A stretch of DNA of 64,000 nucleotides, taken from NCBI RefSeq assembly GCF_000372725.1, contig NW_005202428.1, positions 1,287,331-1,351,330 of the forward strand, in the 5' to 3' direction. A program made the position numbers and the translations under genes. Shown here piece by piece: positions 3,789 through 62,923 of the stretch. The notes beneath the pieces were generated by a model. The model made no database searches and was not told where the DNA came from. It saw only the letters and a list, made by a program, of their open reading frames with translations. The stretch comes from Emiliania huxleyi CCMP1516 (lineage: Eukaryota). The number at the start of each line of letters is the position of its first letter. Position 1 is the first letter of the stretch.

Positions 3789-4766
3789 GGGCTGACAAGC
3801 TGCCGAGCCCAAATCACTGTGAGAGTCGTGATTTCTTGTCGACTGGTGTGTTGTCGTCGTGGTTTCGTATCAAGAATACTCACTCACTCACACTGTCTGT
3901 ATCTGTACGCTAAAGCGCACCATCGCGGCTCGAGCGTCTCTGAGAGGGCCACCTTGCTCTAATAAGAATTGGCCCCTTAGGCTTAGCTGGGAATAGGACC
4001 GCCGCAAGACAGTGACAGTCACAAAATGGGGTCCTGTTCACAGACCTTGAGACTTGAGCACCGATAGGGCTGGTACGGTCAACCCTCGCGATCGTCTCGC
4101 CCTTCCCTCACTGGTGTGTTCATTGGGGGGTCCTCACAAACACGGCTCACGGGACAGGGTCGAGGTGCACGCCGCCGAGGCGGTGTCGTCCCCCCCCTCC
4201 ATCATCTCACTGTGAGACGTCGGCGGTTGTGGCGGTGTGACCGATCGAGCCAAAAGAGGAGCTTGTTCAGCGGGATCCGGGAAGTCGGATCACCCGGGAT
4301 GCACTGTCTCACTCTCTGTGATTCTGTGGGCCTGAGTTCACCACACGACACCATCCCGTCACCACTGGGTTTGTGTGTGGGGTCGAAAACCACTCCGGGA
4401 TGGGCAAGCCGAAGCCCCATAGTTTTGAGTCACGCATACCTTCTTATTCAGAAGGAAATACCTCCGATGGCGCGCTCTGCGCGCTGGTCTATCGCAGGTC
4501 GCTATCGCCACACACAAAAGCACAACCCCGGGCGCCCGCGAAATCGGCAAATCTCGCACGACGAGACAGCACAGTGCGTCGCAGTCGAGACTCGAGTACG
4601 GCTTTATACAAACGAATGCGCCTGCGGGCGGACCATTGGGGCAGGTGGGGCGGACCCTCCGCACCGACAGCTCACACTTCACAGTCGAGTCGCGGGAGGG
4701 GTGCTGGAAAGGAAACGAAAGAAAGGCTTTGCTCCTCACTGATCTAGAGCCGTGTTCCAATCCCCG

Positions 4767-5505
4767 CTAAACACTGGATCCGGGCGGCTGCGCGCTCAGG
4801 AGGTCTGCACTCGGGTCCACGCGCGGGACGATGGCGCCGCTGGAGAGCACCGCGATGGTCCCAGGCGGCGTGAGGAGCGAGCCACCAGGCAGCGGTAACT
4901 CCTTGGAAATTCGTTCGCAGTAGCCCTGGTGCGACCAGCGGAGAAGCGAGCCTCGCCAGACCAGCCACGCGGATGACTCCTCCTCGCCCTCCCGCACTAG
5001 CTCCAGCATTGCACCGTCGGGAAGATGCTTCACGTCGCCGCTGATTGCATGCCGCCGCTTATGCCCGCCGCCATCGATGCGCTGCGTGTGCAGAGCGGTG
5101 TCCACTCGGGCGGCGGACCACCTCTCCTCGGACGGGTGGCTCCGCGCCCATTCAACCATGAATGCATCAAAGGCGGCGCGGCGGCAGCAGCTGCAGGGGC
5201 GGTGGCCGGCCGCTAGGGCGGTCGCTTCGTCGAGGAAGAAGAGTTCGGTGTAGCGACTCGGGGAGAAGAGGACGCGCCGCCGGCCGTTGAAAGCTCTGTT
5301 GTCATTACGCTGCACCTTCCGAGTCCGGTCCACCTCTAGCTTGCACGCGAGCCACGCCTTGCTGGCAAAGGCCCTCACCACCTCCTTGTTGTCGTCGTGC
5401 AGGCACCCCCGATTTCCAAAGCATGCAGTCTGGCGAGGGTAGCGTCGCCACTGCTGTGCCCCACGGCGAGACGCGATTCTGATATGGTCGGCAGCCGCCC
5501 GTCAT
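4767..5505 (-). CDS. Bacterial-type conserved hypothetical protein with Ada-like metal-binding motif; frameshift near 5420
   Basis: YQNRVSPWG...(frameshift)...FGNRGCLHD...YTELFFLDEATALAAGHRPCSCCRR...LPDGAM...WSHQGY resembles a conserved family I recall from bacteria and fungi; no introns; ATG at 5505. Confidence 0.7.
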
Positions 5506-6412
5506 CGGAGGCCCCCACCAGAAGTCCCGTGTACTTCCCTGTTTCACGGCATGTGTGTGTCTCTCTCTCATGCTGTAGGTATTTGTTGGCAAATCAAGAC
5601 ACAGATCTAAATCACAGTGGGTGGAAAGCGAACGAGTTACTTAACAGGGGTCAGTTAGTGCGGGCCACCCTGTCCAGAGGCGGACGGAGGTGCCTTTCTC
5701 TCTCTGTTTGTTTGTGTTTTGCTCATCAGTGTACGTACGTACGTACTTTTAGCTTACTGGGAGAAAAGAGAGAGGGGGTTGTGTTCTCTAGGCCCCTAGG
5801 GGCCCTACGCGCGGCGTGAGAGCTCGGAAGCGAGCTTAGCACGCGGCGATCGAGGATGGCACGGTTCACCCCCTTCACCGAAGCGATCTCTCCCTCAGTG
5901 TATGTAGCTCTTACGTACATTCCCGGACGGAGGAGGACTGCTGACGGGGTTTGCGATGAGAAGCGATCCGAACGTGGCATTCGGGTGATCAGATCACTAC
6001 TTTCTTGTAGGTATGTTGTTGGCAAATCTGGGATCTTGCGATCGAGTCTATGCAGCCCTCGGCCACGCTCTCCTCTCGTGGCTGATAAGCAATGCGATGA
6101 TCGCAGACCAGGCGATGGAGATGGCGGGGAGCACGGGTGTGACTGCTCACCAAGGCCGAGGGGGGCACGACACGCACCGACCCTTCACGAAACGGCATGT
6201 GGTCCTCCGTACGCGTACGAGGGTCTCCCCTTCTTCGTGACCACCTCTAACTTTCGATTTGCCTTCAACAAACCTCTAACTTTCCATGAAGACGTCCGTC
6301 CTTCGCGCCGCTTCAGTTGCGAGCATTTAGCGTCACGACGCGGCGAGCACAACGCAAACCCCGTCAGCAGTCCGCCTCCGGGTGTGTTCGTAAGAACTAC
6401 GTACGGACAAAT

Positions 6413-7776
6413 ATGGACCTGGACGATTGCTTTGCGTACACGACAAGCGTGAGGGTGAGAGTGCGCCACAGGATTCTCGGCTGCCTGTTTTATGGCGTGA
6501 GCCTGTCCATTCTTGTCGGCTACGTGGGGGTGTATGAGCTCTACATCCGAGAACGGTGGGGTGAGCTCGAGGCTCTCGGAGGGACACTCAAGGTGACTGC
6601 AAGGCCGGACGAATCGCTCGTTCCGGTTGACACGCTTCCCTACTGCTCACAGGCTGTCGTGCATGGCCCTTCGCCTGCCGTCCGCAAGCCTTGCATGTCT
6701 TTTGATCGTGTGACGACAATCGCAGAAGCCACACCGCAGACCCTCCTCGTGGGGACACGGCTCGTATCCATTGTCGAGCTGCGTAACAAATCCTGCCGCG
6801 CGCATACTTACGGCTGCGAGCGGTGGGCGCCGCACACGCGCGATGACGCCTTTGTTCCAGACGTCGAGCGCCACGCGGTCATTGTGCAGCACGAGCTGGC
6901 CGATTCGGCGAGCGGCCGCGAGGGGTTCGACACTGCTCTGCCTCGCTCGGCGCCCCTCGTGTCGGGGGATGGCGGCGCTCTGCGAGTGGTTGCGTGCACC
7001 GGAGTGCGAGATCCCGATCCTGCCTGCCCCTTCAGCGGTGACCTCCTCCATGTGCGAGATCTGCTCTTTGTGACTGGGCTCGACCTTGACGCGCCTTTGC
7101 AGGCTACATCGTCGCTGCGCGTGCGTGGGGTGAGCTTGCGGCTCGAGCTAGTGTACAATGGCTCCGGCTACAGCTATCGCGCGAGATCCACCAAGCTGGA
7201 CGCGAACGTGCTGCGCGTGGACACCCTCAACGAATCGGCCCGCGTAATATCCGGCCTGCACGGAATTGGCCTAAGCCTTGTCGAGACCGGCGGAATGCGG
7301 CGGCTTGAGTGGCGTACGGTGCTGCTGACGATCATATCCGGATTTGCGCTGCTCTCAGCTGCCAAAACCGTCGCCGACCTCTTCCTGCTGCACTTTGCAC
7401 CGCGGCGGGACGACTACCGCCTCTTTGTTGAGCAGGTCGCCTACCTGCTTCCCACATCAGAGGCTTACTCAGCCCTATGCCCTGTGCCTTGAGCCCACTA
7501 CCCGCCTTGTTGCCCGATAGCTGACTCCAGATTTTGGGCCCGACACCGAGCACGAGGCGCAAGTCCTCGATCGAGTGAGCCCCGCCGCTTGCCCACCCCG
7601 GCCTCCGCGCGCAATCAAACGCATCTTCCGGCCTGTTTTATGTTTAGGTTCTCGCCCGCAAGCGACGAGAGCGCAACGAGGTGGCACTCAGAGAGGTGGC
7701 TGTTGCGGAGACAGCTAGCATGAGTGCGCCTGCAGACGCGGCGCTGCTGTCCGGCGGCGAACAGCAACAACACTGA
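6413..7776 (+). CDS. P2X purinoceptor-like ligand-gated cation channel (Dictyostelium/algal type)
   Basis: MDLDDCFAYTTSVRVRVRHRILG + TM1, Cys-containing ectodomain, HGIGLSLVETGG...TVLLTIISGFALLSAAKTVAD TM2; two small 3' exons after GT-AG introns; stop 7774-7776. Confidence 0.8.
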
Positions 7777-8300
7777 ACTGACTCAGGTCGAAGTGAGAGC
7801 CTCCTAGTACCTCCCTTTGACCCTTTCCCCCTCGTTTCCCTTTTTTCAAACAGGCAACCCAATCAAAGAATTTTACAAGAAAACTCGCTCCGTCGGAAAG
7901 AAAGCAGGCGCCTCCGTGTCGTTCACGTGTGTCGTGTGTCCGAGAGCGCCTCTTTCACAAGAGGCGCAGCAAAAGCAACAGTGCGCTCTGTGCCCCAACG
8001 CGATCTGGCGCCTCCGGCCTGCTCCTGCGCGGTCCCTTTCCATTCCCACTGGCCCAAAACGCTCTGCAGGCACCGATGGTCCCCTTGTGGGGGGCTCAGT
8101 TGAAGATCGGTGGAAAGAAAGAATTCTTAAGATACAAGCCTCTCTCACAGCACACTGGCACGACAAGGGCGCGGACTGGCGCGGACTGGCACACGCACCG
8201 GCTCACCACCGGAGCCGCCTAAGCGACTCCGTTAAGAACGGCAATGCATTCCGCACCGTGCACAATGCCGCTCTCCCCGAAAGAAAGAAAATTCTCGACG

Positions 8301-52531: not shown

Positions 52532-54420
52532 GCTTGCTCGGCATGCTGCAGTTGGCGCTGCTCTCCGAGGAATGCGCGAATACCACCGAGCTGAAGCGCC
52601 AGCTGCAGCAGGCAGCGCTGCCGACAGCGCCCTGTCCGACAGCGCCAACCTCTCTCTCCCTCTCCCTCTCCCACCCCGCCCCAGCCCCCCGCCCACCGCT
52701 CTCCGCCCTCTCGTCTCTCCCGCCGCATTGCTCGCGCACGCGCACCGCCGTGGCACCGCTGCGGCACCGTTGCGGCACCGCCGTGGCACCGATGCGGCAC
52801 GGCTGTGCACCGTGTTCCCTTTTTGCCGCGCCTCCGCACACTCTTGTGCTGCCGCGCTTCTGGAGGGGCGGCGGCCGCGCTCCTCGGCTGACTCGTCGTC
52901 TACCTCTGCCTCTCAGGCGCGCAACTCCGGGACCCTGCTGCTGAACTTGATCAACGACTTGCTCGACACGGCGCGGTTGCGGTCTGGTCAGCTCTCGCTG
53001 GAGCCGTGCCACTTCGAGCTGCTGCCGACGGTGCGGGAGTCGGTCGACGTGTTGCGCCATCGCGCCAGCGAGAAGGGCCTGCGCTTCATCTTCGAGATGG
53101 ACCCGGCGTTGGAGGGCGTGAGGGTACACTCGGACCCGACGCGGCTCTCGCAGGTCCTCCTCAACTTGCTGTGGGATGAATGATCGACTGACGAATCAAC
53201 TAACTCAATCATGAACAGGTCCTCCTCAACCTGCTGTGGAACGCCATCAAGTTCACGGCGGCAGGCGAGGTGCGGCTCACCGCGAGCCAAGTCTCGCGGA
53301 GCGACGAGGCGTGCGGGGTGCGAATCGAGGTCTCCGACACCGGCATCGGCATCGCCGGGGACATGCAGGAGGCCGTCTTCGAGTGTGGCCGCTCCATCGG
53401 CCGCAAGAGCTTGACGAGCCGCCTCTCGTCCCTCGACATCTCCGGCCGCTCCTCCATGTCCGAGCGCGCGCCCAGCTCCCCTCGGACGCCGACAGGCGCG
53501 CGGTGCACCGCCCGCCTTGGCCGTCGCCATCGCCGTCGCCATCGCCGTCGTCGCCGCCATCGCCGTGCACCGACCACCCCCCCCCCCCCTCTGCCCAGGC
53601 TCGTCGCCTGGCATCCCGGGCGCGGGCCTCGGCTTGTACATTTCGCGCCAGCTCGTGGTCCTGCTCGGCGGCACGCTCGCCCTCTCCTCGGAGCTCGCCG
53701 TCGGCACCGCCGCCTCGCTCAACCTCACCCTGCGAGCCGGGCCGCCCCTCACTCGCTCTCGCTCGTGCCGCTGCACAGGTACGTCCGTCTCGCTCGAGCT
53801 CACGCTGCCGATTGCGACGAGCGGCGAGGAGGAGCCGGCGCGGCCGCCGTCGGCGCGGAGCCCGCAGTCGCCGCTGCCCAGGTTTAGCGTGCTGCTGGTC
53901 GAGGACAACGACTTCAACGTCGAGGTGTGCAAGCAGCTGCTCGAGCACATGGGCCAGCGCGTCTCGGTCGCGATGGACGGGCGCGATGCCGTGGGTGCTG
54001 TCGTCAGCTCGCTCGCCGACGGTGAGAGAGCCCGCGGCGGGTGGCGCGCCCGATCTGCCCCGGCACTCGCGCCAGAGCCCCTTCCCCCCACCTTGCGAAG
54101 GCGCACACGAGTTCGACGTGATACTGATGGACTGCGACATGCCCGTCATGAACGGCTTTGAGGCGTGTGCGGCGTTCCGATTCGCCGCCCCTCCGGCCCC
54201 ACGGTCTGACTCTCGCTCACCGCGGCGCGCGTAGGCGACGGCCCAGATCCGGAGGATCGAGCGCGAGCAGAACGTCGCCAAGCCAGTCACCATCTGGGCG
54301 CTCACCGCGCACGCGATGAACTCGGTCAAGGCGCAGTGCCTCGAATGCGGAATGGACGCGTTCTTGACCAAGCCACTGATGCTGCCGGTGTTGCGCGAGC
54401 GGCTCGAATCACTCGCCTGA
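50580..54420 (+). CDS. Hybrid sensor histidine kinase (GAF-PAS-HisKA-HATPase-REC), multi-intron
   Basis: EQRIAALHDFHLLDT...FDRLA...LVSLVDTDRQWFK...AFCTHAI (GAF); ANAPIFAVD...WNQK (PAS); FLACMSHEMRTPLNG (H-box); NAIKFT, DTGIGI, GAGLGLYIS; LLVEDN, ILMDCDMPVMNGFE, FLTKP (REC). Confidence 0.92.
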
Positions 54421-55149
54421 TGCTAGGATAGATGAACTTCGGCCCGGGTTGTTGTCTCTCTCGCAGCGCGCGCCTTTACAGTGTCTCGCGCGGCGCGCCG
54501 GATCCTCGAGAGAGCCATACCACCGTACAGCCATGAGACGAGATGTGTACGCGCGGAAGCGGAGACCAAACTTTATATCACATGCGTTCGATGTTGCGAA
54601 ATTTACGTATTACGACCCTGGTCGGGAGAAAGACACGAACGTGTGTATATATCTATACAGTGCGAGGCGTGGCGATAGAAATCGGGGCGTCGGCATCCAG
54701 CAGCCGATTTCTGTTTCGGCGAGGGAAATCGGGCGAGCCAGCAGCCGATTTCTGTAAGCGATTTCTGCCAAAATTTTCTTCGGCGCTGCGCGCCGGTCAC
54801 TATACGGTCTAGATACTAGTACACTAAAAGGTTGCCCTGAGATACGAATTCAATCCTCCCGCTTAACCTTTATTTCGTGTGTGCGTGCTCGCTCGTGCCT
54901 CGTGCGCCGAACCAAGTTCTGCTTCAACAAACCCGTCGAGAGGCCACGTCACGCCGGTGTCCCCTTTTTCTGCATCTTTGTGGGTGTGGCAGCCCACTTT
55001 GCCAGTCCCTAGAGGTGTCTTTGACATTTGACTTCGATGTCTGGTGGGGGACGATTTATGTCTGGTGGGGGACGCAGGTGCTCAAAGGTTGCGGGCGTGT
55101 CACCACTCGCGCCTTCGCTCTCGACACTGGGTTCTGGACATGCAACGAC

Positions 55150-56367
55150 ATGCCGAAAAGGGAGCGATCCGCGGCGCAGGCACGCGCTGAGGCCGTGTAT
55201 AGACGCGCCAATCCGGATGATAGGGGCGATCGGGGCCGTGACCGCAGGGCCGAGAAGGTCGAGTACAGACGCAGACTCAAGAAAACGAGAGCGGAGGCCG
55301 CCGCCCTCGCGGTGCCTGACGCTGCTCCTGCGGCTCTCGTTCCCGTCCCGATTCCGTCTACCGTCCCTCGGCCACGGGCCCTCGGCCAGCACGGCAGGGG
55401 CCACCTGCTCGTCGCGAGGCAGCCGAGCTTGGCACTTCCGCCGCCCCTCGCCGCTCTTCCACCTACAATTGCTCCTCGCCTCGTCGCTCCGATCCCGCCT
55501 TTGGCGCCGACCGCGAGCCGGTACGGCGGCCTCGCCCTGCGCGACATCGCCTTTGGCAGCAGCCAGGGTCGCCTCGGCAAGGGCGGCCAAGGCACCGTTA
55601 GGCTTGGCCGCCACTACGGTGGTCGTCTCGCGGTGAAGCAGCCGCTGCGCGCGAGCAGCGCCTTCGCCTCCGAGTGTCAGATCGCGGCAGCACTACACCA
55701 TGAGAACATCATCTATGTGATGGGCTTTGCATGCGCCCCGCGCGAGACGCCGTTCCTCGCTCTCGACTATGCCGACGCAGGGACTCTGGGAGATTTGTTG
55801 ATCGGGGATCAGAGGGGCGAGAGCCGCTCCCTCGGCGTGCAGATTGCAAGAGCAATGTCGTACCTGCACACGCGATCTCCCCCCATCGTGCACCTTGACC
55901 TCAAGCCATCGAACGTGCTGCTGTCGGCGCGCTCTGAGGGGCTTGTCGCTAAGCTGTGTGACTTTGGGCAGGCGAGGCGACTAGCCGTTGGGGCGCAGCT
56001 CTCGCACTCAGGCACGCCGGGTTGGCGGGCGCCCGAGCAGGTGCGGGTGGCCCGCGACTTTGCAGTCGTGCCGCTTTCGCGTGGCACCGACGCCTGGTCG
56101 CTAGGGTGTGTCCTGGCTGCGCTCGAGGCGCCGTCGGGCGTCTGCGACCCGTACCACTTCGCCACGGGCGACGCGCCAGGCAAGTGCGACTCGCGCCTCC
56201 GACACGAGCTCGACGCAATCGTCGCGAACGGCTTCACCCGCCCGTGTGTGCCCGATGAAAGCCGGCTTGCAGGTGTGGTCAGCGCGTGTACGCACGCCCT
56301 GCCTAGCGAGCGAGCGACGTGCGCGTGGGTGCGCGCCGAGCTCGAGCAGCTTCTGCTGCAGCCGTGA
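55150..56367 (+). CDS. Intronless protein kinase (TKL-like), inside the transposon ends
   Basis: GKGGQG, LAVK, HLDLKPSNVLL, DFG, GTPGWRAPEQ, DAWSLG; basic and Pro-rich N-terminus. Confidence 0.9.
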   Translation: MPKRERSAAQARAEAVYRRANPDDRGDRGRDRRAEKVEYRRRLKKTRAEAAALAVPDAAPAALVPVPIPSTVPRPRALGQHGRGHLLVARQPSLALPPPLAALPPTIAPRLVAPIPPLAPTASRYGGLALRDIAFGSSQGRLGKGGQGTVRLGRHYGGRLAVKQPLRASSAFASECQIAAALHHENIIYVMGFACAPRETPFLALDYADAGTLGDLLIGDQRGESRSLGVQIARAMSYLHTRSPPIVHLDLKPSNVLLSARSEGLVAKLCDFGQARRLAVGAQLSHSGTPGWRAPEQVRVARDFAVVPLSRGTDAWSLGCVLAALEAPSGVCDPYHFATGDAPGKCDSRLRHELDAIVANGFTRPCVPDESRLAGVVSACTHALPSERATCAWVRAELEQLLLQP

Positions 56368-56605
56368 GCGCAGAGAGTGACGCGCGAGTGACGGGCGAGG
56401 CCGATTGTCGATCTCTTTTCTGGTTGGTGCCATGTTTTGAGGGTGTATGAAATCTGTAATTGTCAAATGACACCCGGCTAGGCCGACAGCCCCCCTCCCC
56501 CACTCGCCGCGCTAACAGTCTCGCACAAAATAAACAGCCGGGAGCCGGGTCAGGTCGTGTGGGCACAGCCTCAGCAGACACAGCCTGCGCGACGAGCCGG
56601 CCCGC

Positions 56606-57037
56606 CTAGGCAAAGGGCGAAAAGCAGAGGATCGCCGCATTCACGCCGTTGCGGCGCGACGGCGTCAGTCCCTCCGGCGTGACGGGCGGCGCGGTAACAC
56701 GCGCCCGTTTCTTGCCGCCGGCGTTGACCGGAGCGGTCGAGGACGACGCAGCGGCAACTACGCCGTTGACGGGAGCCGGGCTCGGCTTCGGCATGCGCGA
56801 GAAGAATTTGTGAAGTGTCCCATGCTCGCTTTCTGGCGAGAGGGCCATCAGGCGCTTGAGCGCATCCTCCTTGTACTTGGTCACCATGTGGGCCGGGAGG
56901 TCTCGGGCTTGGCGGCGCGTCAGCGGCGGCACGACCGGCTCGTCGAGGGGGTTCTTCGTGGCGGCGACCTTGCGCTTGTGCGCGCGGACGTACACCTTGC
57001 GGACGCGTGGCTGAGGGCACTCTCCCGAGGGCGGCAT
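56606..57037 (-). CDS. Small basic hypothetical protein (143 aa) within the transposon
   Basis: ATG-initiated ORF divergent from the transposase (~100 bp apart); basic clusters RVRKVYVRAHKRK and KKRAR. Confidence 0.5.
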   Translation of the reverse strand: MPPSGECPQPRVRKVYVRAHKRKVAATKNPLDEPVVPPLTRRQARDLPAHMVTKYKEDALKRLMALSPESEHGTLHKFFSRMPKPSPAPVNGVVAAASSSTAPVNAGGKKRARVTAPPVTPEGLTPSRRNGVNAAILCFSPFA

Positions 57038-57138
57038 GGCGACTTGCTGTGGATGTAGTCGATGTGTGCAGTGTGCAGGATTTGCACCCTTTTTGCATTC
57101 ATCCTGACACGCTGAGTGACACTACGCGAGCAGCACCC

Positions 57139-59871
57139 ATGGAGGCGCTGGTCAACACTGTGCTGCTGGCTGCACACCCGAGCCTTCGCGAGCGCTGCAA
57201 CGCCGCAAAGGTCGTGTCGGTCCTCGAGGAGCTCGGGGCGTACGACTCGTCCGCACTGCGGTCACTCCTCTCGTCGTTCACCGACACCGTCGCACACAAG
57301 CTGAAGGAGGAGGAAGCAGCACCGCCAGCTCTGGTCGCCGCGCTGGCGACGCATGTCGACTCGGGCAGCCTATCAGAGCCTCAGAACATCGGCGGCGCGA
57401 TGGACGCGACAGCTGCAACCTCCTCCTCGAGCAGCGCCGCCGCTGCTGTCACCCCGAGGACGGTGAAGGCCGGCGGCGGCAAGCATAGCACGCTGCAGCA
57501 GAAGTCGATCGGCGCGTTCTTTGCTGGTGGCACCAGGACTACGTACGCGACGCTGCCGGGCATAGGCCGTCAGATCAGATCCGTTACCTCGCTCACGCCC
57601 GAGCAGCTGCAGGCTGTGGGCAAGGCGCCCGAGAAGTTCACGTCGTGCGCCAAGGGCTGTGGGCAGACATTCTTGCACGGGCCTGCGCGCGTTGCGCACG
57701 AAAAGTTCTGCAGCGGTCGCGCGGCCGAGACGGCCGCCGAAGTCGCCGCCGCCGCAGAGGCTGCCGCCTCCGCTGCCACCACCACCCAGCCCGCCACCGC
57801 CGTCACCGAGGCTGCCGCCGAAGCCGCTAACAGCAGCGACGACGAGCAGCCACCCGCGAAAGCACCAAAGCTGCGCGCGGATGGCGGCATCAAGCAGAGT
57901 GGGCTCCGCCAGGGCGAGAAGAAGGGCATGAAACACTCGCTCTACTTTAAGCTCGAGGTGGTGCGCACGCTGCGCAGGTTGCAGAGCCTCGAGAAGCGCT
58001 GGGAGAAGGCGCCGAGTGGCTGGCGTGGCGCCGGCATCGAGACGTCGGAGATTCACAAGGGCGTACACCCCTCCCTCGTGTCCAAGTGGGGCGGCAAGGA
58101 GGACGAGCTGCACATGGCGCTGCAGCACGAGAACCGCGTCAGCCGTAAGCAGAAGCACCGCACCGGCACGATGGCGACGTTCCAGTCGCGCGGCGCACGG
58201 CGGACGACCCTCCATCGCGGCCGCGCGCCGCCTTTCGCTGCGGTCGAGGTGGAGCTGCACAAGCGCTACCGCGACAAGCGGACGCGTGGCGAGCGCGTGA
58301 CCGGCCAATGGCTTCGCGTCTCCATGAAGCGCCTCGTGCGCGAGTTCGCCGGCGCCGACGTGGCCGACGGCTTCAAGGCGTCCAAGTGGTGGCTGCGGTC
58401 GTTCGCGCGGCGCTTCGGCATGTCGCTCCGGCGCAAGTCGAACAGCCGCGCCGAGTCCGTCCTCGTGCGGCTGCCGAAGATCAAGCGCTGGCACGCGCGC
58501 CTCCGTCGCCGCCTCCGTGGCGGCCTGCAGGAGAAGCTCGACCCAAAGTGGGGACGCTGGTTGCCGCGCAACCGGCTGAGCGTCGACCAGGTGCCGTGCA
58601 ACCTCCGAGCGGGCGATGGGCGCACCTACGACGACACGGGCGCCAAGCGCGTCTGGCTGGCGGGGGCGAAGGCTGACGACGGCAAGCGCTTCTGCACGCT
58701 GCAGATCGTCGCGCGCGCGAGCAACGGCGACGCCTCGATGCCGCGGCACGGGCAGCCCAAGCTGTGCGTGATCTTTCGCGGCCAGGGCAAGCAGATCTCG
58801 CAGAATGAGCGAGATGCGCGCCACCCCGACGTGCAGGTGCGCTTCCAGCCGAAGGCGTGGGCTGACGACCAGCTCTGCGAGGACTTCGCGGACGTGGAGA
58901 TGCGCGAGGCGACGGCGGCCGCACGCGCCGCGGGCGAGCGGAGCGTCGCCATCTTCGACAACCTCTCCGGCCAGACGACGCCCGAGCACCTGCGCAACCT
59001 GCAGCGCCGCGCCCACTGCGACCGCCACCTGCTGCCGACTGGCTCGACGGGCGAGCTGATGCTCATCGACGGCGGCATCGGCGTCCGCCTCAAGAACCTG
59101 ATGGGCGACGAGATGGACACGTGGCTCGAGCAGCCGGGCCACCTCGAGCGCTGGACCAAGGGCCCCAAGGAGGGTGGCCTCAAGGCGTGGCAGAAGCGTT
59201 CGCTCATCACGCAGATCGCGGGCCGAGCGTGGGAGACGCTCTGCGCCACGTATGACTTCGAGAAGTCGGCGCGCAGCCTCGGCCTGCTCATGACTGTCGA
59301 CGGCTCCGGCGACGAGCACATCTGCGTGCAGGGGGTGACGGACTACACCTTCAAGGACGAGGACGGCGGATCGGACGGCGGGGAGAGCGAGGCGGACGAG
59401 GACGAGGCGGAGCTCGCCGATGTCGACGAGGCGGCGGGCGAGGAGGAGGGCGAGGAGGAGGGCGAGGAGGAGGCGGAGGACGGCATGGAGGACTCAGAGG
59501 ACGAGGACGAGGACGACACCGCCGTGCGCATGCAGGCATGCGGCGAGGCTCCGGCAATGCCCCCGAAGGGCTACGTCTATGCGGCGACGTGCCCGCCGCT
59601 GGCGAACGACGACGAGCAGCGCGCGCTGTGCCGGCGCAAGATCCTCGCCGCGCACCTCCTCGACGGCGCCACCGGCTGGTACGTTGGCACCGTGCAGCAC
59701 TTCGGCGTGGGCTCCTCGTGGCGTCAGCCTGACGCGACGCACATCGTCATGTACTCCCAGAAAGAGACGGGCACCAAGCACCTCGCGGGCCGTGTCGCGT
59801 GCAAGCTAGCCGCCGACAACTATGGCGCGAGCGAGTGGTGGCTCCTGCTGGAGCCGGCGCCAGAGAGCTGA
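57139..59871 (+). CDS. pogo-like transposase (zinc finger, CENP-B-type HTH, DDE_1 with DD36D, acidic tract, C-terminal beta domain), ~910 aa
   Basis: CAKGC...HEKFC; RTRGERVTGQWL...FKASKWWLRSFARRFGMSLRR (HTH); SVDQVP, QPKAWAD, IFDNLSGQ, LPTGSTGELMLIDGGIG; uninterrupted ORF. Confidence 0.9.
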   Translation: MEALVNTVLLAAHPSLRERCNAAKVVSVLEELGAYDSSALRSLLSSFTDTVAHKLKEEEAAPPALVAALATHVDSGSLSEPQNIGGAMDATAATSSSSSAAAAVTPRTVKAGGGKHSTLQQKSIGAFFAGGTRTTYATLPGIGRQIRSVTSLTPEQLQAVGKAPEKFTSCAKGCGQTFLHGPARVAHEKFCSGRAAETAAEVAAAAEAAASAATTTQPATAVTEAAAEAANSSDDEQPPAKAPKLRADGGIKQSGLRQGEKKGMKHSLYFKLEVVRTLRRLQSLEKRWEKAPSGWRGAGIETSEIHKGVHPSLVSKWGGKEDELHMALQHENRVSRKQKHRTGTMATFQSRGARRTTLHRGRAPPFAAVEVELHKRYRDKRTRGERVTGQWLRVSMKRLVREFAGADVADGFKASKWWLRSFARRFGMSLRRKSNSRAESVLVRLPKIKRWHARLRRRLRGGLQEKLDPKWGRWLPRNRLSVDQVPCNLRAGDGRTYDDTGAKRVWLAGAKADDGKRFCTLQIVARASNGDASMPRHGQPKLCVIFRGQGKQISQNERDARHPDVQVRFQPKAWADDQLCEDFADVEMREATAAARAAGERSVAIFDNLSGQTTPEHLRNLQRRAHCDRHLLPTGSTGELMLIDGGIGVRLKNLMGDEMDTWLEQPGHLERWTKGPKEGGLKAWQKRSLITQIAGRAWETLCATYDFEKSARSLGLLMTVDGSGDEHICVQGVTDYTFKDEDGGSDGGESEADEDEAELADVDEAAGEEEGEEEGEEEAEDGMEDSEDEDEDDTAVRMQACGEAPAMPPKGYVYAATCPPLANDDEQRALCRRKILAAHLLDGATGWYVGTVQHFGVGSSWRQPDATHIVMYSQKETGTKHLAGRVACKLAADNYGASEWWLLLEPAPES

Positions 59872-60398
59872 GCATGAGGGACTTGACGTGTTGCGTCACT
59901 GTTCACGCAAAGACACAACCCCGGGCCCAAGACTCACACTGTTCACACTATAGAGAGGGTGAAAATTGCGTTTCACCATGACTGTAGACTGAGAAGAAAG
60001 TGAAAGAACGACCTCTCTCTAAAAAGTCGTATGATTTCTAAAATTTTCTTCGCGCCTGCGGCGCGGCAGATCAGAGAAATCGGGCCGGCCTCGTGCCAGC
60101 AGCCGATTTCTATTTCGGCCAGGGAAATCAGCCAAATTTCCAGCAGCCAATTTCTAAACACCGATTTCTAAGGCAAGAGCACGCACTGTATGCCAAACTC
60201 CACGCGACAAACCAGAGAGCCGCGATATGTCCGGGTTGGATCGATGGCGCTTCCCGGGAACCGGGGAAGCCGGCTGCCGGGACCGCCGCGGCCGGGGCTC
60301 TGTGACAGGAAAGTGTAGATAGCGATCTCACTTTCTCTCACATAGCCGCGACCACTCGCTCACACCAGATGCACGCCAGCCGACACACGCAGCCCGAA

Positions 60399-61397
60399 CT
60401 ACCAGCTGAATGACATCTGGTCCATCGCGTCGTTGACAGTTAGGCTGCCCACCGGGTACTCAAGGGGCGCGCCGAGCGACGTCAAAGTCCCGTCGTCCGA
60501 CACCAGCGCCGCCGAGAAGGTGTACGAGGGAAGCTGTCCCGCGAGAGCGGCGTCTACGCGCACCTTCACGCGCTGCCCCCTCGCGACGGATGCGGGCCGC
60601 TCGAGCCGTATGCAAATGATCCGCCAGTGGGAGCCGTCCCACGCGGAGGACACGTCGGGCGGGCCGTCCGCCGCGTCGGCCCCGCACCGGAGCTCGACGT
60701 GCAAGTTGAGTGCCGCCAGCACGCCCGCCGCCTCGCAGCAGAAGAGAAGCTCGCGCCGCTGCGACGGCGACGGCGATCCCTCATCAAAGCGCAAGTCCTC
60801 GCACACTTGCGGGGGAGCGAGCGGCCGTCCCGCCTGCGACCGAGCGTCGAGCTTCAGCGCACGCCCTGCGCCAGCAGCTTTGGCCAGCAGATCCGGGTCT
60901 GGCGCCAGGCAGGGCGCGAGAAGGGTTGATGCGCGCGACGGGACAGACAGTGGCGGCCGCGCGGCGTCGGCAACATGGCGGCGCATCGCGTCGAGGATGG
61001 CGGCACACGCGCCCTCCTCGCCAGCAACCTCGCCGATGAGCTCGTGCACCAGCAGCTCCGCCCGCTCCGGCAGCTCAAGCGCAAGATCGGTCGAAAAAGC
61101 CTCGAGGACGGTGATGCGGTGGTCGAGATTGGCGGACGCCACCGCGGCGCGGGCTGCTGCCGCTGCGCTGGGCTGCCCTTCGAGCGCATACACGTGTCGC
61201 GCACCCGCCTCCGCGGCAAAGATCGCTAGCAGTGCAAGCGCGCCAGTGCCTACGTCCAGGACAACCTTGCCGGGAGCAGCGGCGGCGATCGCCTTGCGGT
61301 AAGCCTCCGTGCGCGTCACGTCGTCGCGCATGCCACGATAGCAGTCGGCGGTGTATCGCATCGCATGGCCGTGCGGATGGTGGTCGGCGGCCGGCAT
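60399..61397 (-). CDS. PRMT-like SAM-dependent methyltransferase
   Basis: MRDDVTRTEAYRKAI, VVLDVGTG, AGARHVYALE, HELIGEVAGEEG (double-E loop), SHW (THW-loop-like). Confidence 0.85.
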   Translation of the reverse strand: MPAADHHPHGHAMRYTADCYRGMRDDVTRTEAYRKAIAAAAPGKVVLDVGTGALALLAIFAAEAGARHVYALEGQPSAAAAARAAVASANLDHRITVLEAFSTDLALELPERAELLVHELIGEVAGEEGACAAILDAMRRHVADAARPPLSVPSRASTLLAPCLAPDPDLLAKAAGAGRALKLDARSQAGRPLAPPQVCEDLRFDEGSPSPSQRRELLFCCEAAGVLAALNLHVELRCGADAADGPPDVSSAWDGSHWRIICIRLERPASVARGQRVKVRVDAALAGQLPSYTFSAALVSDDGTLTSLGAPLEYPVGSLTVNDAMDQMSFSW

Positions 61398-61434
61398 CGG
61401 ATGAGGGCGGTGAGAAGAGGGTCCGCTCTGCGTG

Positions 61435-61485
61435 CACTCTTCACAGCGTTCACTCTTCACAGCGTTCACTCTTCACAGCGTTCAC
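61435..61485. repeat. 16-bp tandem repeat x3 (CACTCTTCACAGCGTT)
   Basis: Visible just upstream of the PRMT-like gene. Confidence 0.85.
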
Positions 61486-61734
61486 ACGAGGCATCGCGAC
61501 CGTTTCTTGCGGCCATCTTTGATCGAAATCAAGGCTAACCAGCCTAGAGACGACCCCTAGACACTCACCTACCTTGCCGACAGCCCAGTGCGTCCGTCTG
61601 AAGCACCCCAAGTACGCCGGTGAGACGCCCGAAACGGGGTGACTTCTAAAAGTCACTCCGCATGTGGGCCGCCTTTGCGGTCGTCTGACGCGCCCTCCGG
61701 CCGCCGCACACTCGCCACTCACCCCCTCTCACCT

Positions 61735-62565: not shown

Positions 62566-62814
62566 CGCGGCCCGACTGGGGCCGAGTCCGCGGGGCTCGC
62601 ACGGTGCACGGGCCGGCCACTAGAGCACGTACTGAGTACTGTGCGCGCGCCGGGGCGAGTGACTTCGAGAAGTCACTAAGTCACTTCTTCGAGTCACTCC
62701 TAGAGATTTGCCCGCCAAAAGAAAGCCAATTCTTGACTTGGGCCCTCGGGGAGGCCTGCGGGCGGCCTTCTCTCGAGGTCTCGAGATACACAAAGCGGCC
62801 AACCTAGAGATAGA

Positions 62815-62923
<109 letters not shown>

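What the first reader, a model, noticed from the sequence alone, without database searches (positions are those of the whole stretch)
54658..60188. Intact three-gene pogo transposon carrying a protein kinase and a small basic protein
Seen: TA-flanked ends with matching inverted motifs enclose exactly three intronless ORFs, kinase (+), 143-aa basic protein (-) and transposase (+). All lack stops, whereas many host genes here have introns. The kinase keeps the Gly loop, AVK, DLKPSN, DFG and APE motifs. Known: pogo/Tc1-mariner elements normally encode only a transposase, but ciliate TBE elements encode a transposase, a small ORF and a zinc-finger/kinase protein. Inference: this is a mobile kinase-bearing system with a TBE-like gene set on a pogo backbone; the kinase and small protein could regulate the transposase, counter silencing, or act as an addiction pair. 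I am not aware of a description of this in haptophytes.
Basis: partly seen in the sequence, partly recalled or inferred. Interest (0 to 1): 0.9.

Follow-up and report, generated by a model that had tools for sequence, protein, structure and literature searches.

The report
Active algal transposon carrying a kinase
In the bloom-forming alga Emiliania huxleyi, a 5.5-kb cut-and-paste jumping gene moves as one unit with an intact protein-kinase gene and a small basic-protein gene, and the kinase likely helps the element control or protect its own activity, a role no one has yet shown for any transposon-borne kinase in the papers I searched.

Summary
Window 54658-60188 is a 5,531-bp pogo-type (DD36D) transposon of Emiliania huxleyi with TA duplications, 28-nt imperfect TIRs and three stop-free ORFs: kinase (+), 143-aa basic protein (-), transposase (+). 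Public contigs show this site empty with one TA (two runs) and with a TA-CTG-TA excision footprint (one run). A second whole copy has another flank. Depth over the element, kinase included, is about 5 to 45 times the flanks in four DNA runs, and deletion derivatives join the kinase to the right end. The kinase keeps all catalytic motifs, is Raf/CTR1-like, and has no relative between about 45% and 94% identity. The small ORF has transposase-like codon use. Relatives with a visible left end lack the kinase (3 of 3); one has a small basic ORF in the same slot. It is not a TBE (different ends, target site and triad); the three-gene layout is convergent. Selection on the kinase and its target are not shown, so passive capture remains a real rival. 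Verdict: new variant of a known kind, interest 0.68.

The parts
54656..54657 (.). Left TA target-site duplication
   Evidence: empty allele has a single TA
54658..54685 (+). Left terminal inverted repeat, 28 nt (21 of 28 match the right end)
   Evidence: the CAGT-N14-TAGAAA pattern recurs at ends in 13 other metagenome loci, and a CAGC variant in one more
54677..54766 (+). Left subterminal repeats of (CAGC)CGATTTCT, likely extra transposase-binding sites (inferred)
   Evidence: (79% over 95 nt to the right subterminal block)
55150..56367 (+). Protein kinase, 405 aa: basic N-terminus, Pro/Ala-rich linker, non-RD TKL (Raf/CTR1-like) domain at about aa 136-405
56529..56534 (+). AATAAA, possible end signal of the kinase transcript (inferred)
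   Evidence: RNA contigs of X9 and X11 break at 56510-56522 where listed DNA contigs run on: weak hint only
56606..57037 (-). Small basic protein, 143 aa, pI 10.8, no known family
57038..57138 (.). 101-bp spacer between the divergent small ORF and transposase starts, likely a bidirectional promoter (inferred)
   Evidence: 75-78 bp in sister family L004/L006
57139..59871 (+). pogo-type DD36D transposase, 910 aa: N-terminal helical domain (SAM/HhH-like arrangement), PIP-box-like QKSIGAFF (121-128), C2HC finger (170-191), HTH region, DDD core, acidic tract, C-terminal SH3/Tudor-like barrel
60075..60169 (+). Right subterminal repeats
60161..60188 (-). Right terminal inverted repeat; its last three bases (CTG) are what the footprint allele retains
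60189..60190 (.). Right TA target-site duplication

Best explanation
This is a multi-copy pogo-type DNA transposon of Emiliania huxleyi that inserts at TA, has excised from this site leaving a 3-nt footprint, and carries a kinase gene and a small basic-protein gene inside its ends; the kinase is likely a working accessory enzyme kept because it serves the element. Shown: boundaries, TA duplication, empty site, footprint, several copies, intact motifs. Inferred steps: (1) the transposase binds the TIR and subterminal repeats and cuts with a staggered end, as in other IS630-Tc1-mariner/pogo elements; (2) the small protein is co-expressed with the transposase from the short divergent spacer and is the older accessory; (3) the kinase came from a receptor-like TKL, lost its membrane part, gained a basic N-terminus and is probably soluble, nuclear and active without an upstream signal (non-RD); (4) it most likely phosphorylates nuclear proteins that set the element's activity, host silencing or chromatin factors first, the transposase second. 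Odds: kinase is true cargo of the mobile unit 0.97; catalytically active 0.8; retained by selection for the element 0.5; step 4 as stated about 0.35.
For: Empty site with one TA in X2 and X11. TA-CTG-TA footprint in X1 on flanks identical to the window's over 934 and 114 bases. Depth over the element against flank: X1 237-316 vs 6-9, X8 44-47 vs 5-8, X2 121-149 vs 22, X4 26-36 vs 2-6 (summed contig depth, not a copy number). L003 is the whole three-gene unit at 99.6% identity with another left flank. Eight named E. huxleyi gene models of the kinase on 7 contigs, with consecutive accessions kinase/small ORF (EOD11623/EOD11624) and transposase/small ORF (EOD16438/EOD16439). Two recurrent internal deletions join kinase codon 167 or 239 to the right part of the element. 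All nine canonical kinase residues are present. No parent above about 45% identity among 5.8 billion or 1.84 billion proteins apart from the element's own copies. A distant relative (P0225/P0354, 36-44%) shares GWRAPE and DPY.F, found in 3 of 185 kinase domains examined, and forms a clade with it (FastTree 0.996, UFBoot 100), sister to membrane-anchored P0342 (0.971, 98). Small ORF: GC at third positions 119 of 143 (p 3e-5 against 0.68) and best codon score in its own frame; six distinct in-frame indels among the variants aligned. RNA contigs cover the kinase and small ORF in X9, X10 and X11, with no substitution over 55836-56522 in X11. Precedent for phosphorylation controlling a mariner transposase: Mos1 S170 (PMC3902898 abstract).
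Against: No direct test of selection on the kinase: the 21 substitutions available from RNA contigs and L003 split 6 synonymous to 15 non-synonymous, close to neutral, though most come from deleted or frameshifted copies. Only 1 of 42 related loci carries a kinase, and that one is this same family; of the 4 loci with a visible left TIR, L006, L013 and L029 have none. Kinase codon use is host-like (0.017; host methyltransferase 0.033) and weaker than the small ORF's (0.104), and its N-terminal 125 codons score negative, which fits a later capture. The genomic context of P0225/P0354 is unknown (contigs 1.1-1.6 kb), so they may be ordinary host genes. Homology of the small ORF to the sister-family ORF is borderline (global p 0.02-0.10, local not significant), and 3 of the 7 small-ORF hits are frameshifted forms. 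RNA contigs cannot show strand or level, and X9/X10 also cover the non-coding ends, so DNA carry-over is possible. In E. coli the TBE accessory proteins did not change transposase DNA binding (bioRxiv 2025.03.17.643836 section 19).
Confidence: 0.5

Rival explanations
1. Passive capture: the transposon picked up a processed host kinase fragment, perhaps in another alga, and the gene is intact only because the family amplified recently. It does nothing for the element.
For: Copies are nearly identical (4 substitutions and 4 short indels between the window and L003 over about 5.5 kb), so there has been little time for decay. Relatives move without a kinase. Host-like codon use and a neutral-like 6:15 substitution split.
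Against: No donor above about 45% identity, although E. huxleyi proteins are in the collection. The gene has its own start, a stop-free 405 codons and RNA cover. A long branch with every catalytic residue intact implies long selection somewhere.
Confidence: 0.3
2. Host-benefit cargo: the kinase acts in the alga's stress or anti-viral signalling and copies are kept because carriers do better.
For: Nearest solved structures are the signalling kinases CTR1 and MLKs. Non-RD kinases are linked to innate immunity in plants and animals (recalled, no call). The element is found in several marine studies.
Against: The kinase stays tied to an intact, excising transposase with no sign of a fixed, TIR-less copy. 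The commonest derivatives delete the catalytic half.
Confidence: 0.12
3. Addiction pair: the kinase is a toxin and the small basic protein its antidote, which penalises cells that lose or silence the element.
For: Two convergent genes, one an enzyme and one small and largely low-complexity. Bacterial kinase toxin-antitoxin pairs such as HipA/HipB are a precedent (recalled, no call).
Against: A small ORF in the same slot exists in a family without a kinase, under constraint similar to its transposase (pN/pS 0.43, p 0.07, against 0.37-0.57). The small ORF shares its upstream spacer with the transposase, not with the kinase. With many copies per genome, loss of one copy would not release a toxin (inference).
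Confidence: 0.08

Closest known systems
pogo superfamily (Passer, Tigger, pogoR, Lemi, Mover, Fot/Fot-like; Gao et al. 2020, PMC7386202)
   Same: TA duplication, TIR of 40 bp or less, DDD triad with a 35-36 spacing, DDE_1 and HTH_Tnp_Tc5 domains, transposase length within 300-977 aa. A 3-nt footprint is within the 0-4 bp reported for Passer.
   Different: The survey lists elements of 1.20-5.20 kb with ORFs encoding transposases only; this one is 5.53 kb with two more genes. No haptophyte is named in its text or in 8 supplementary files searched for Emiliania, huxleyi, Chrysochromulina or Cymbomonas. The transposase has extra N- and C-terminal domains.
TBE elements of Oxytricha and relatives (PMC4724952; bioRxiv 2025.03.17.643836; PMC7325037)
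   Same: [quoted passage not shown]
   Different: TBE has telomere-like TIR tips, about 80-bp TIRs, an ANT duplication, a DD34E transposase outside the pogo clade and zinc fingers on the kinase protein. Here: no telomeric repeats in the ends, TA duplication, DD36D, no zinc-finger pattern in the kinase N-terminus. TBE accessory genes are shown under purifying selection; these are not yet.
IS3EU elements of rust fungi with transposase, TET/JBP and alpha-kinase genes (Kojima 2025, PMC12730594)
   Same: Eukaryotic TIR DNA transposon that encodes a kinase beside a proposed anti-silencing gene.
   Different: Different transposase superfamily, 6-bp duplication, and an atypical alpha-kinase rather than a conventional TKL kinase.
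[quoted passage not shown]
   Same: TA-flanked elements of this broad group with three genes, tied to marine algae.
   Different: Their cargo is an endonuclease plus a methyltransferase or Fanzor, and they lie in viral genomes. This transposase family had no confirmed hit in the viral collection.
Raf-like/TKL kinases (CTR1, MLK1/MAP3K9)
   Same: Best solved-structure match CTR1, E 1.6e-20, with the shared 'PPIVH-DLK' and 'GTP-W-APE' context.
   Different: Non-RD (HLD), no regulatory or membrane domain, short activation segment, long branch.

Membership tests
pogo superfamily | TA target-site duplication | tested here: met
   TA on both sides; one TA in the empty allele
pogo superfamily | Short terminal inverted repeats | tested here: met
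   28 nt, 21 matching
pogo superfamily | DDD catalytic triad with a DDE_1 domain | tested here: met
   D483, D607, D644 (DD36D); DDE_1 27.9 bits against cut-off 22; spacing 35 in 37 and 36 in 24 of 61 family sequences scored
pogo superfamily | CENP-B-type HTH_Tnp_Tc5 DNA-binding domain | tested here: inconclusive
   E 0.0022, 18.4 bits, below the 22.2 cut-off; PF03221 is recorded on several relatives
pogo superfamily | Tree placement with reference pogo families (which subfamily, e.g. Mover DD36D or Fot-like) | not tested
   No reference transposase set was fetched; the tree holds only this family and its relatives
TBE (ciliate telomere-bearing elements) | Telomere-like sequence at the TIR tips | tested here: not met
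   No C4A4/T4G4 or CCCTAA/TTAGGG in about 140 bp at either end
TBE (ciliate telomere-bearing elements) | ANT target duplication | tested here: not met
   TA here; ANT
TBE (ciliate telomere-bearing elements) | DD34E transposase | tested here: not met
   DD36D; DD34E
TBE (ciliate telomere-bearing elements) | Three ORFs with the small one reversed and a kinase-domain protein | tested here: met
   no zinc-finger pattern in the kinase's first 140 aa
TBE (ciliate telomere-bearing elements) | Purifying selection on the accessory ORFs | tested here: inconclusive
   Kinase 6 syn: 15 non-syn, mostly from dead copies; sister-family small ORF pN/pS 0.43, p 0.07
Active eukaryotic protein kinase, TKL group | Invariant catalytic residues (Gly loop, VAIK Lys, alphaC Glu, catalytic Asp/Lys/Asn, DFG, APE, alphaF Asp, subdomain XI Arg) | tested here: met
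   Positions; alignment to CTR1
Active eukaryotic protein kinase, TKL group | Phosphotransfer activity and substrate | not testable with these tools
   Needs purified protein
Toxin-antitoxin (addiction) pair | Toxic enzyme bound and neutralised by the small partner | not tested

The most novel reading that the evidence does not exclude
A pogo transposon has turned a host receptor kinase into its own nuclear enzyme that switches off host silencing or tunes its transposase. With TBE and IS3EU this would be a third independent recruitment of a kinase by a eukaryotic cut-and-paste element, and the first with excision footprints and empty sites in hand to test what the kinase does.
Probability: 0.35. 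Interest if true: 0.88.

Novelty: new variant of a known kind. Interest (0 to 1): 0.68.

Why it matters
What the kinase domain of ciliate TBE elements does is still open: the genes are under purifying selection (PMC4724952) and an E. coli test found no effect (bioRxiv 2025.03.17.643836). Here an unrelated transposon has the same kind of gene set, in near-identical intact copies, with filled, empty and excised alleles at one site. Excision can therefore be assayed with and without the kinase. If the kinase acts on silencing, it is a new kind of transposon counter-defence. Even if it is a passenger, an active element with a burst in at least one culture matters for genome variation in a major bloom alga, and at least eight 'hypothetical' kinase gene models in the E. 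huxleyi annotation are transposon genes, which affects kinome counts.

Tried and rejected
No whole genome was held, so copies could not be counted or aligned directly. Viral collection: transposase alignment, 0 of 30 pattern matches confirmed; kinase alignment, 0 of 41; the TIR pattern gave 2 matches with no similarity to the element, taken as chance. Prokaryotic genomes gave only generic kinases at 26-38% identity, so no bacterial donor. The small ORF had no Pfam hit under E 0.3, no PHROG, no usable Atlas hit and only 83-100% identical homologues. Rfam found nothing at gathering score over 54500-60400. Fold searches of the transposase's end domains gave only middling scores: C-terminal barrel best Z 5.6 (rmsd 3.4, 71 aligned), with Tudor histone readers tied at Z 4.7-5.3, and no Foldseek match at E 0.001; Atlas lead PF21743 Tudor at score 0.76, 18% of members; N-terminal domain best Z 6.1 among SAM and HhH folds. 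These show a fold type, not a function. X11's RNA contigs leave most of the transposase uncovered; a part without cover is not evidence. The 193-base skip in X12 (58645-58839) has AG..GT ends, so I read it as a deletion, not an intron. The 175-aa overlapping ORF at 56571-57098 was rejected on codon score, -0.40. No CpG depletion in element or flanks. Literature: searches found no description of a kinase-bearing pogo or mariner in haptophytes; PMC6431247 (giant transposons review) has no occurrence of 'kinase', nor do PMC7386202 or PMC7325037 main texts. Repbase and subscription journals could not be searched and may hold this family. Earlier-findings look-ups by sequence and place were empty.
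Full report
1. Observation. The element runs from 54658 to 60188 (5,531 bp), starts CAGTG, ends CACTG and has TA on both sides. The inverted arms are 31 nt and 77% complementary with the TA included. Blocks of a (CAGC)CGATTTCT repeat lie inside both ends. Three stop-free ORFs lie between them: 405 aa (+), 143 aa (-), 910 aa (+). Pfam gives Pkinase (E 6e-31) for the first, nothing significant for the second, and DDE_1 (E 2.1e-6) with a sub-threshold HTH_Tnp_Tc5 for the third.

2. Host. Near-identical proteins are named as hypothetical proteins of Emiliania huxleyi. Of the members listed for the two main kinase clusters (8 of 8, and 15 of 93), six entries carry E. huxleyi accessions, covering 8 gene models on 7 contigs; the window's exact kinase is on 5 further contigs of mixed sources. 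Consecutive accessions pair kinase with small ORF and small ORF with transposase on other contigs. That assembly may hold alleles separately (recalled), so the true count could be lower.

3. The unit is mobile and includes the kinase. Three alleles of this site appear. The window is filled. X2 (DNA) and X11 (RNA, a 3,867-nt contig) run from the left flank through a single TA into the right flank. X1 joins 54656 to 60185, which leaves TA-CTG-TA: both TAs plus the last three bases of the element. X1's flanks match the window with no differences over 934 and 114 bases, whereas the empty alleles differ in the right flank, so the footprint allele derives from the filled haplotype (inference). Passer, a pogo element, leaves 0-4 bp footprints (PMC9976928 section 19). 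Depth rises at the left end and falls at the right end in 4 of 4 DNA-type runs: X1 237-316 against 6-9, X8 44-47 against 5-8, X2 121-149 against 22, X4 26-36 against 2-6. The tool warns this is not a copy number; I use it only as a sign of many near-identical copies. Kinase depth equals or exceeds transposase depth in all four. L003, a metagenome contig, holds the whole unit at 99.6% identity with a different left flank. Two internal deletions recur: kinase codon 167 to about 59874 (12 of the 25 protein records examined) and codon 239 to about 59597 (P0003, P0165, and an RNA contig of X11). They tie the kinase start to the right end in other copies.

4. Transposase. The triad is D483, D607, D644 (DD36D). 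Relatives at 32-78% identity are common in marine metagenomes (85 hits); the only named ones are from Cymbomonas and Prymnesium. The end pattern CAGT-N14-TAGAAA is shared across the clade. The protein has extra parts: an 80-aa helical N-terminal domain (pLDDT 83; SAM/HhH-like arrangement, best Z 6.1), a PIP-box-like QKSIGAFF matched in 8 of 12 relatives with that region (the Drosophila pogo transposase has a PCNA-binding PIP box, PMC4103810 passages), a C2HC finger, an acidic tract and a C-terminal beta-barrel (pLDDT 92; SH3/Tudor-like, best Z 5.6). These Z values show only a common fold.

5. Kinase. All canonical catalytic residues are present, with HLD in place of HRD. The nearest solved structures are CTR1 (E 1.6e-20) and MLK kinases. 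Searches found the element's own copies at 94-100% and then mostly generic kinases at 26-40% (one search scored only 7,997 candidates of 222-709 aa, one search lists one protein per 50% cluster and the best 150 of 286,376 hits). One small cluster, P0225/P0353/P0354, is a true relative: 36-44% identity, GWRAPE and DPY.F shared only by it and the window among 185 domains, clade support 0.996 (FastTree, 185 domains) and 100 (UFBoot, 42 domains). Their sister is P0342, a kinase behind a membrane helix (0.971, 98; hydropathy peak 2.35). Long branches may inflate these supports. So the gene probably descends from a receptor-like TKL and has no close parent on record. The context of P0225 is unknown.

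6. Small ORF. It is basic (pI 10.8) with no family. Its third-position GC is 119 of 143 and its codon score, trained on the transposase, is positive only in the annotated frame (0.104; others -0.09 to -0.40). Eight aligned variants show six distinct in-frame indels; I chose mostly full-length variants, and 3 of the 7 search hits are frameshifted. A sister family (L004, L006; transposase about 60% identical) has a 151-aa basic ORF in the same place and orientation, 75-78 bp from the transposase start. Between L004 and L006 it has pN/pS 0.43 (p 0.07), like their transposase (0.37-0.57), while 21 of 196 non-coding bases differ. Sequence homology to our ORF is borderline.

7. Distribution of the cargo. 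A kinase profile hit 1 of 42 related loci, L003. Most are too short to show a left end. Of the four that do, L006 has the small ORF only, and L013 and L029 have neither. The kinase is thus specific to this family among those visible, and the closest sisters (P0052, P0053) could not be read.

8. Expression. RNA contigs cover kinase and small ORF in X9, X10 and X11, colinear with the DNA; X12 holds diverged, partly deleted copies. X11 has 55836-56522 with no substitution. X9 and X11 both break at 56510-56522, just before an AATAAA. Contigs cannot give strand or level, and DNA carry-over is possible in the two metatranscriptomes.

9. Selection on the kinase is not shown. The 21 substitutions at hand are 6 synonymous and 15 not, near neutral, but most come from deleted or frameshifted copies, where that is expected. 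Its codon use is host-like. The case for function rests on intact motifs on a long branch with no close donor.

10. Mechanism. Shown: insertion at TA, excision, amplification with both extra genes. Inferred: standard pogo cut-and-paste; small protein co-expressed with the transposase; kinase transcribed from the left end and acting in the nucleus on silencing factors or on the transposase. Host kinases do control transposases: PKA phosphorylation of Mos1 S170 blocks paired-end complex assembly and nuclear import (PMC3902898 abstract); a preprint title reports the like for piggyBac (10.1101/2022.09.26.509586, search listing only). An acidic S-D-D/E motif precedes the DNA-binding region in 8 of 15 relatives, a possible site, untested. 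I give 0.5 to an accessory kept by selection, 0.3 to passive capture, 0.12 to host benefit and 0.08 to addiction.

11. Comparison. It meets the pogo features tested, but exceeds the surveyed size range and gene content (PMC7386202 section 8 and passages, supplements searched). It fails TBE membership on ends, target site and triad while sharing the three-gene layout (PMC4724952 passages). Kinase cargo is known from TBE and from fungal IS3EU (alpha-kinase; PMC12730594 passages), and three-gene Mariners from algal viruses (PMC3627910 passages). Also seen: PMC7325037, PMC10138859 and bioRxiv 2021.09.26.461848 (passages), PMC6431247 (term search, no hits). Six searches found no description of this element; Repbase was out of reach and does hold some E. 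huxleyi families.

12. Verdict. A real, recently active, multi-copy pogo-type transposon with two accessory genes, one a conventional protein kinase. New variant of a known kind; interest 0.68, rising to about 0.88 if the kinase is shown to serve the element.

Noticed in passing
L008:1-17691 (interior shared with L007, L009, L011): A related 704-aa pogo transposase without the family's TIRs sits in an 8.6-kb interior between two 4,537-bp arms that are 100% inverted copies. Beside it is a 1,234-aa ORF (4529-8230) with motifs that by eye recall a tyrosine recombinase and an OTU-like protease (recalled; no Pfam hit). Giant foldback or linear element, or an assembly artefact.
   Followed up: partly
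L014:1844-3250: A JmjC/cupin gene (Cupin_8 E 2.6e-18) and a 155-aa ORF with a J-domain-like HPD motif lie upstream of a related transposase; the 155-aa ORF has a look-alike beside the transposase in L007/L008/L009/L011. No TIR was found, so cargo status is unknown.
   Followed up: partly
L004:735-1966 and L006:1552-2693: The sister-family transposase has a different N-terminal domain and is interrupted by a run of telomere-like hexamer repeats, probably an intron. N-terminal domains appear to be swapped within the clade.
   Followed up: no
window 57111-57119, 57464, 56485: The window's copy differs from the majority in 4 of 4 DNA runs: 5 extra bases in the divergent spacer, a missing 6-base in-frame repeat in the transposase, and a missing AC after the kinase.
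   Followed up: partly
window 60199-60312: The empty alleles in X2 and X11 lack about 14 and about 92 bases of the right flank that the window and X1 have; a separate small insertion or duplication next to the site.
   Followed up: no
window 53200-54420 and 60399-61397: The element sits between the converging 3' ends of a histidine-kinase/response-regulator-like gene (by eye) and a SAM-dependent methyltransferase gene (PrmA E 5.6e-5); one RNA contig spans the empty site, so the insertion may affect these transcripts.
   Followed up: partly
window 61430-61700 and 62659-62700: A second repeated sequence: depth 4-10 times the flank in 4 of 4 DNA runs from about 61466, 16-bp tandem units at 61430-61485, and a palindromic GTGACTT...AAGTCAC motif at 61639, 62659 and 62680. 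Possibly the ends of another element of about 1.2 kb.
   Followed up: no
window 62816-62922: A (GT)n microsatellite of about 105 bases.
   Followed up: no
window 56798-56821 (small ORF aa 73-80): HGTLHKFF in the small protein resembles a PIP box with H in place of Q; invariant in the variants aligned, but these are 88-100% identical.
   Followed up: no
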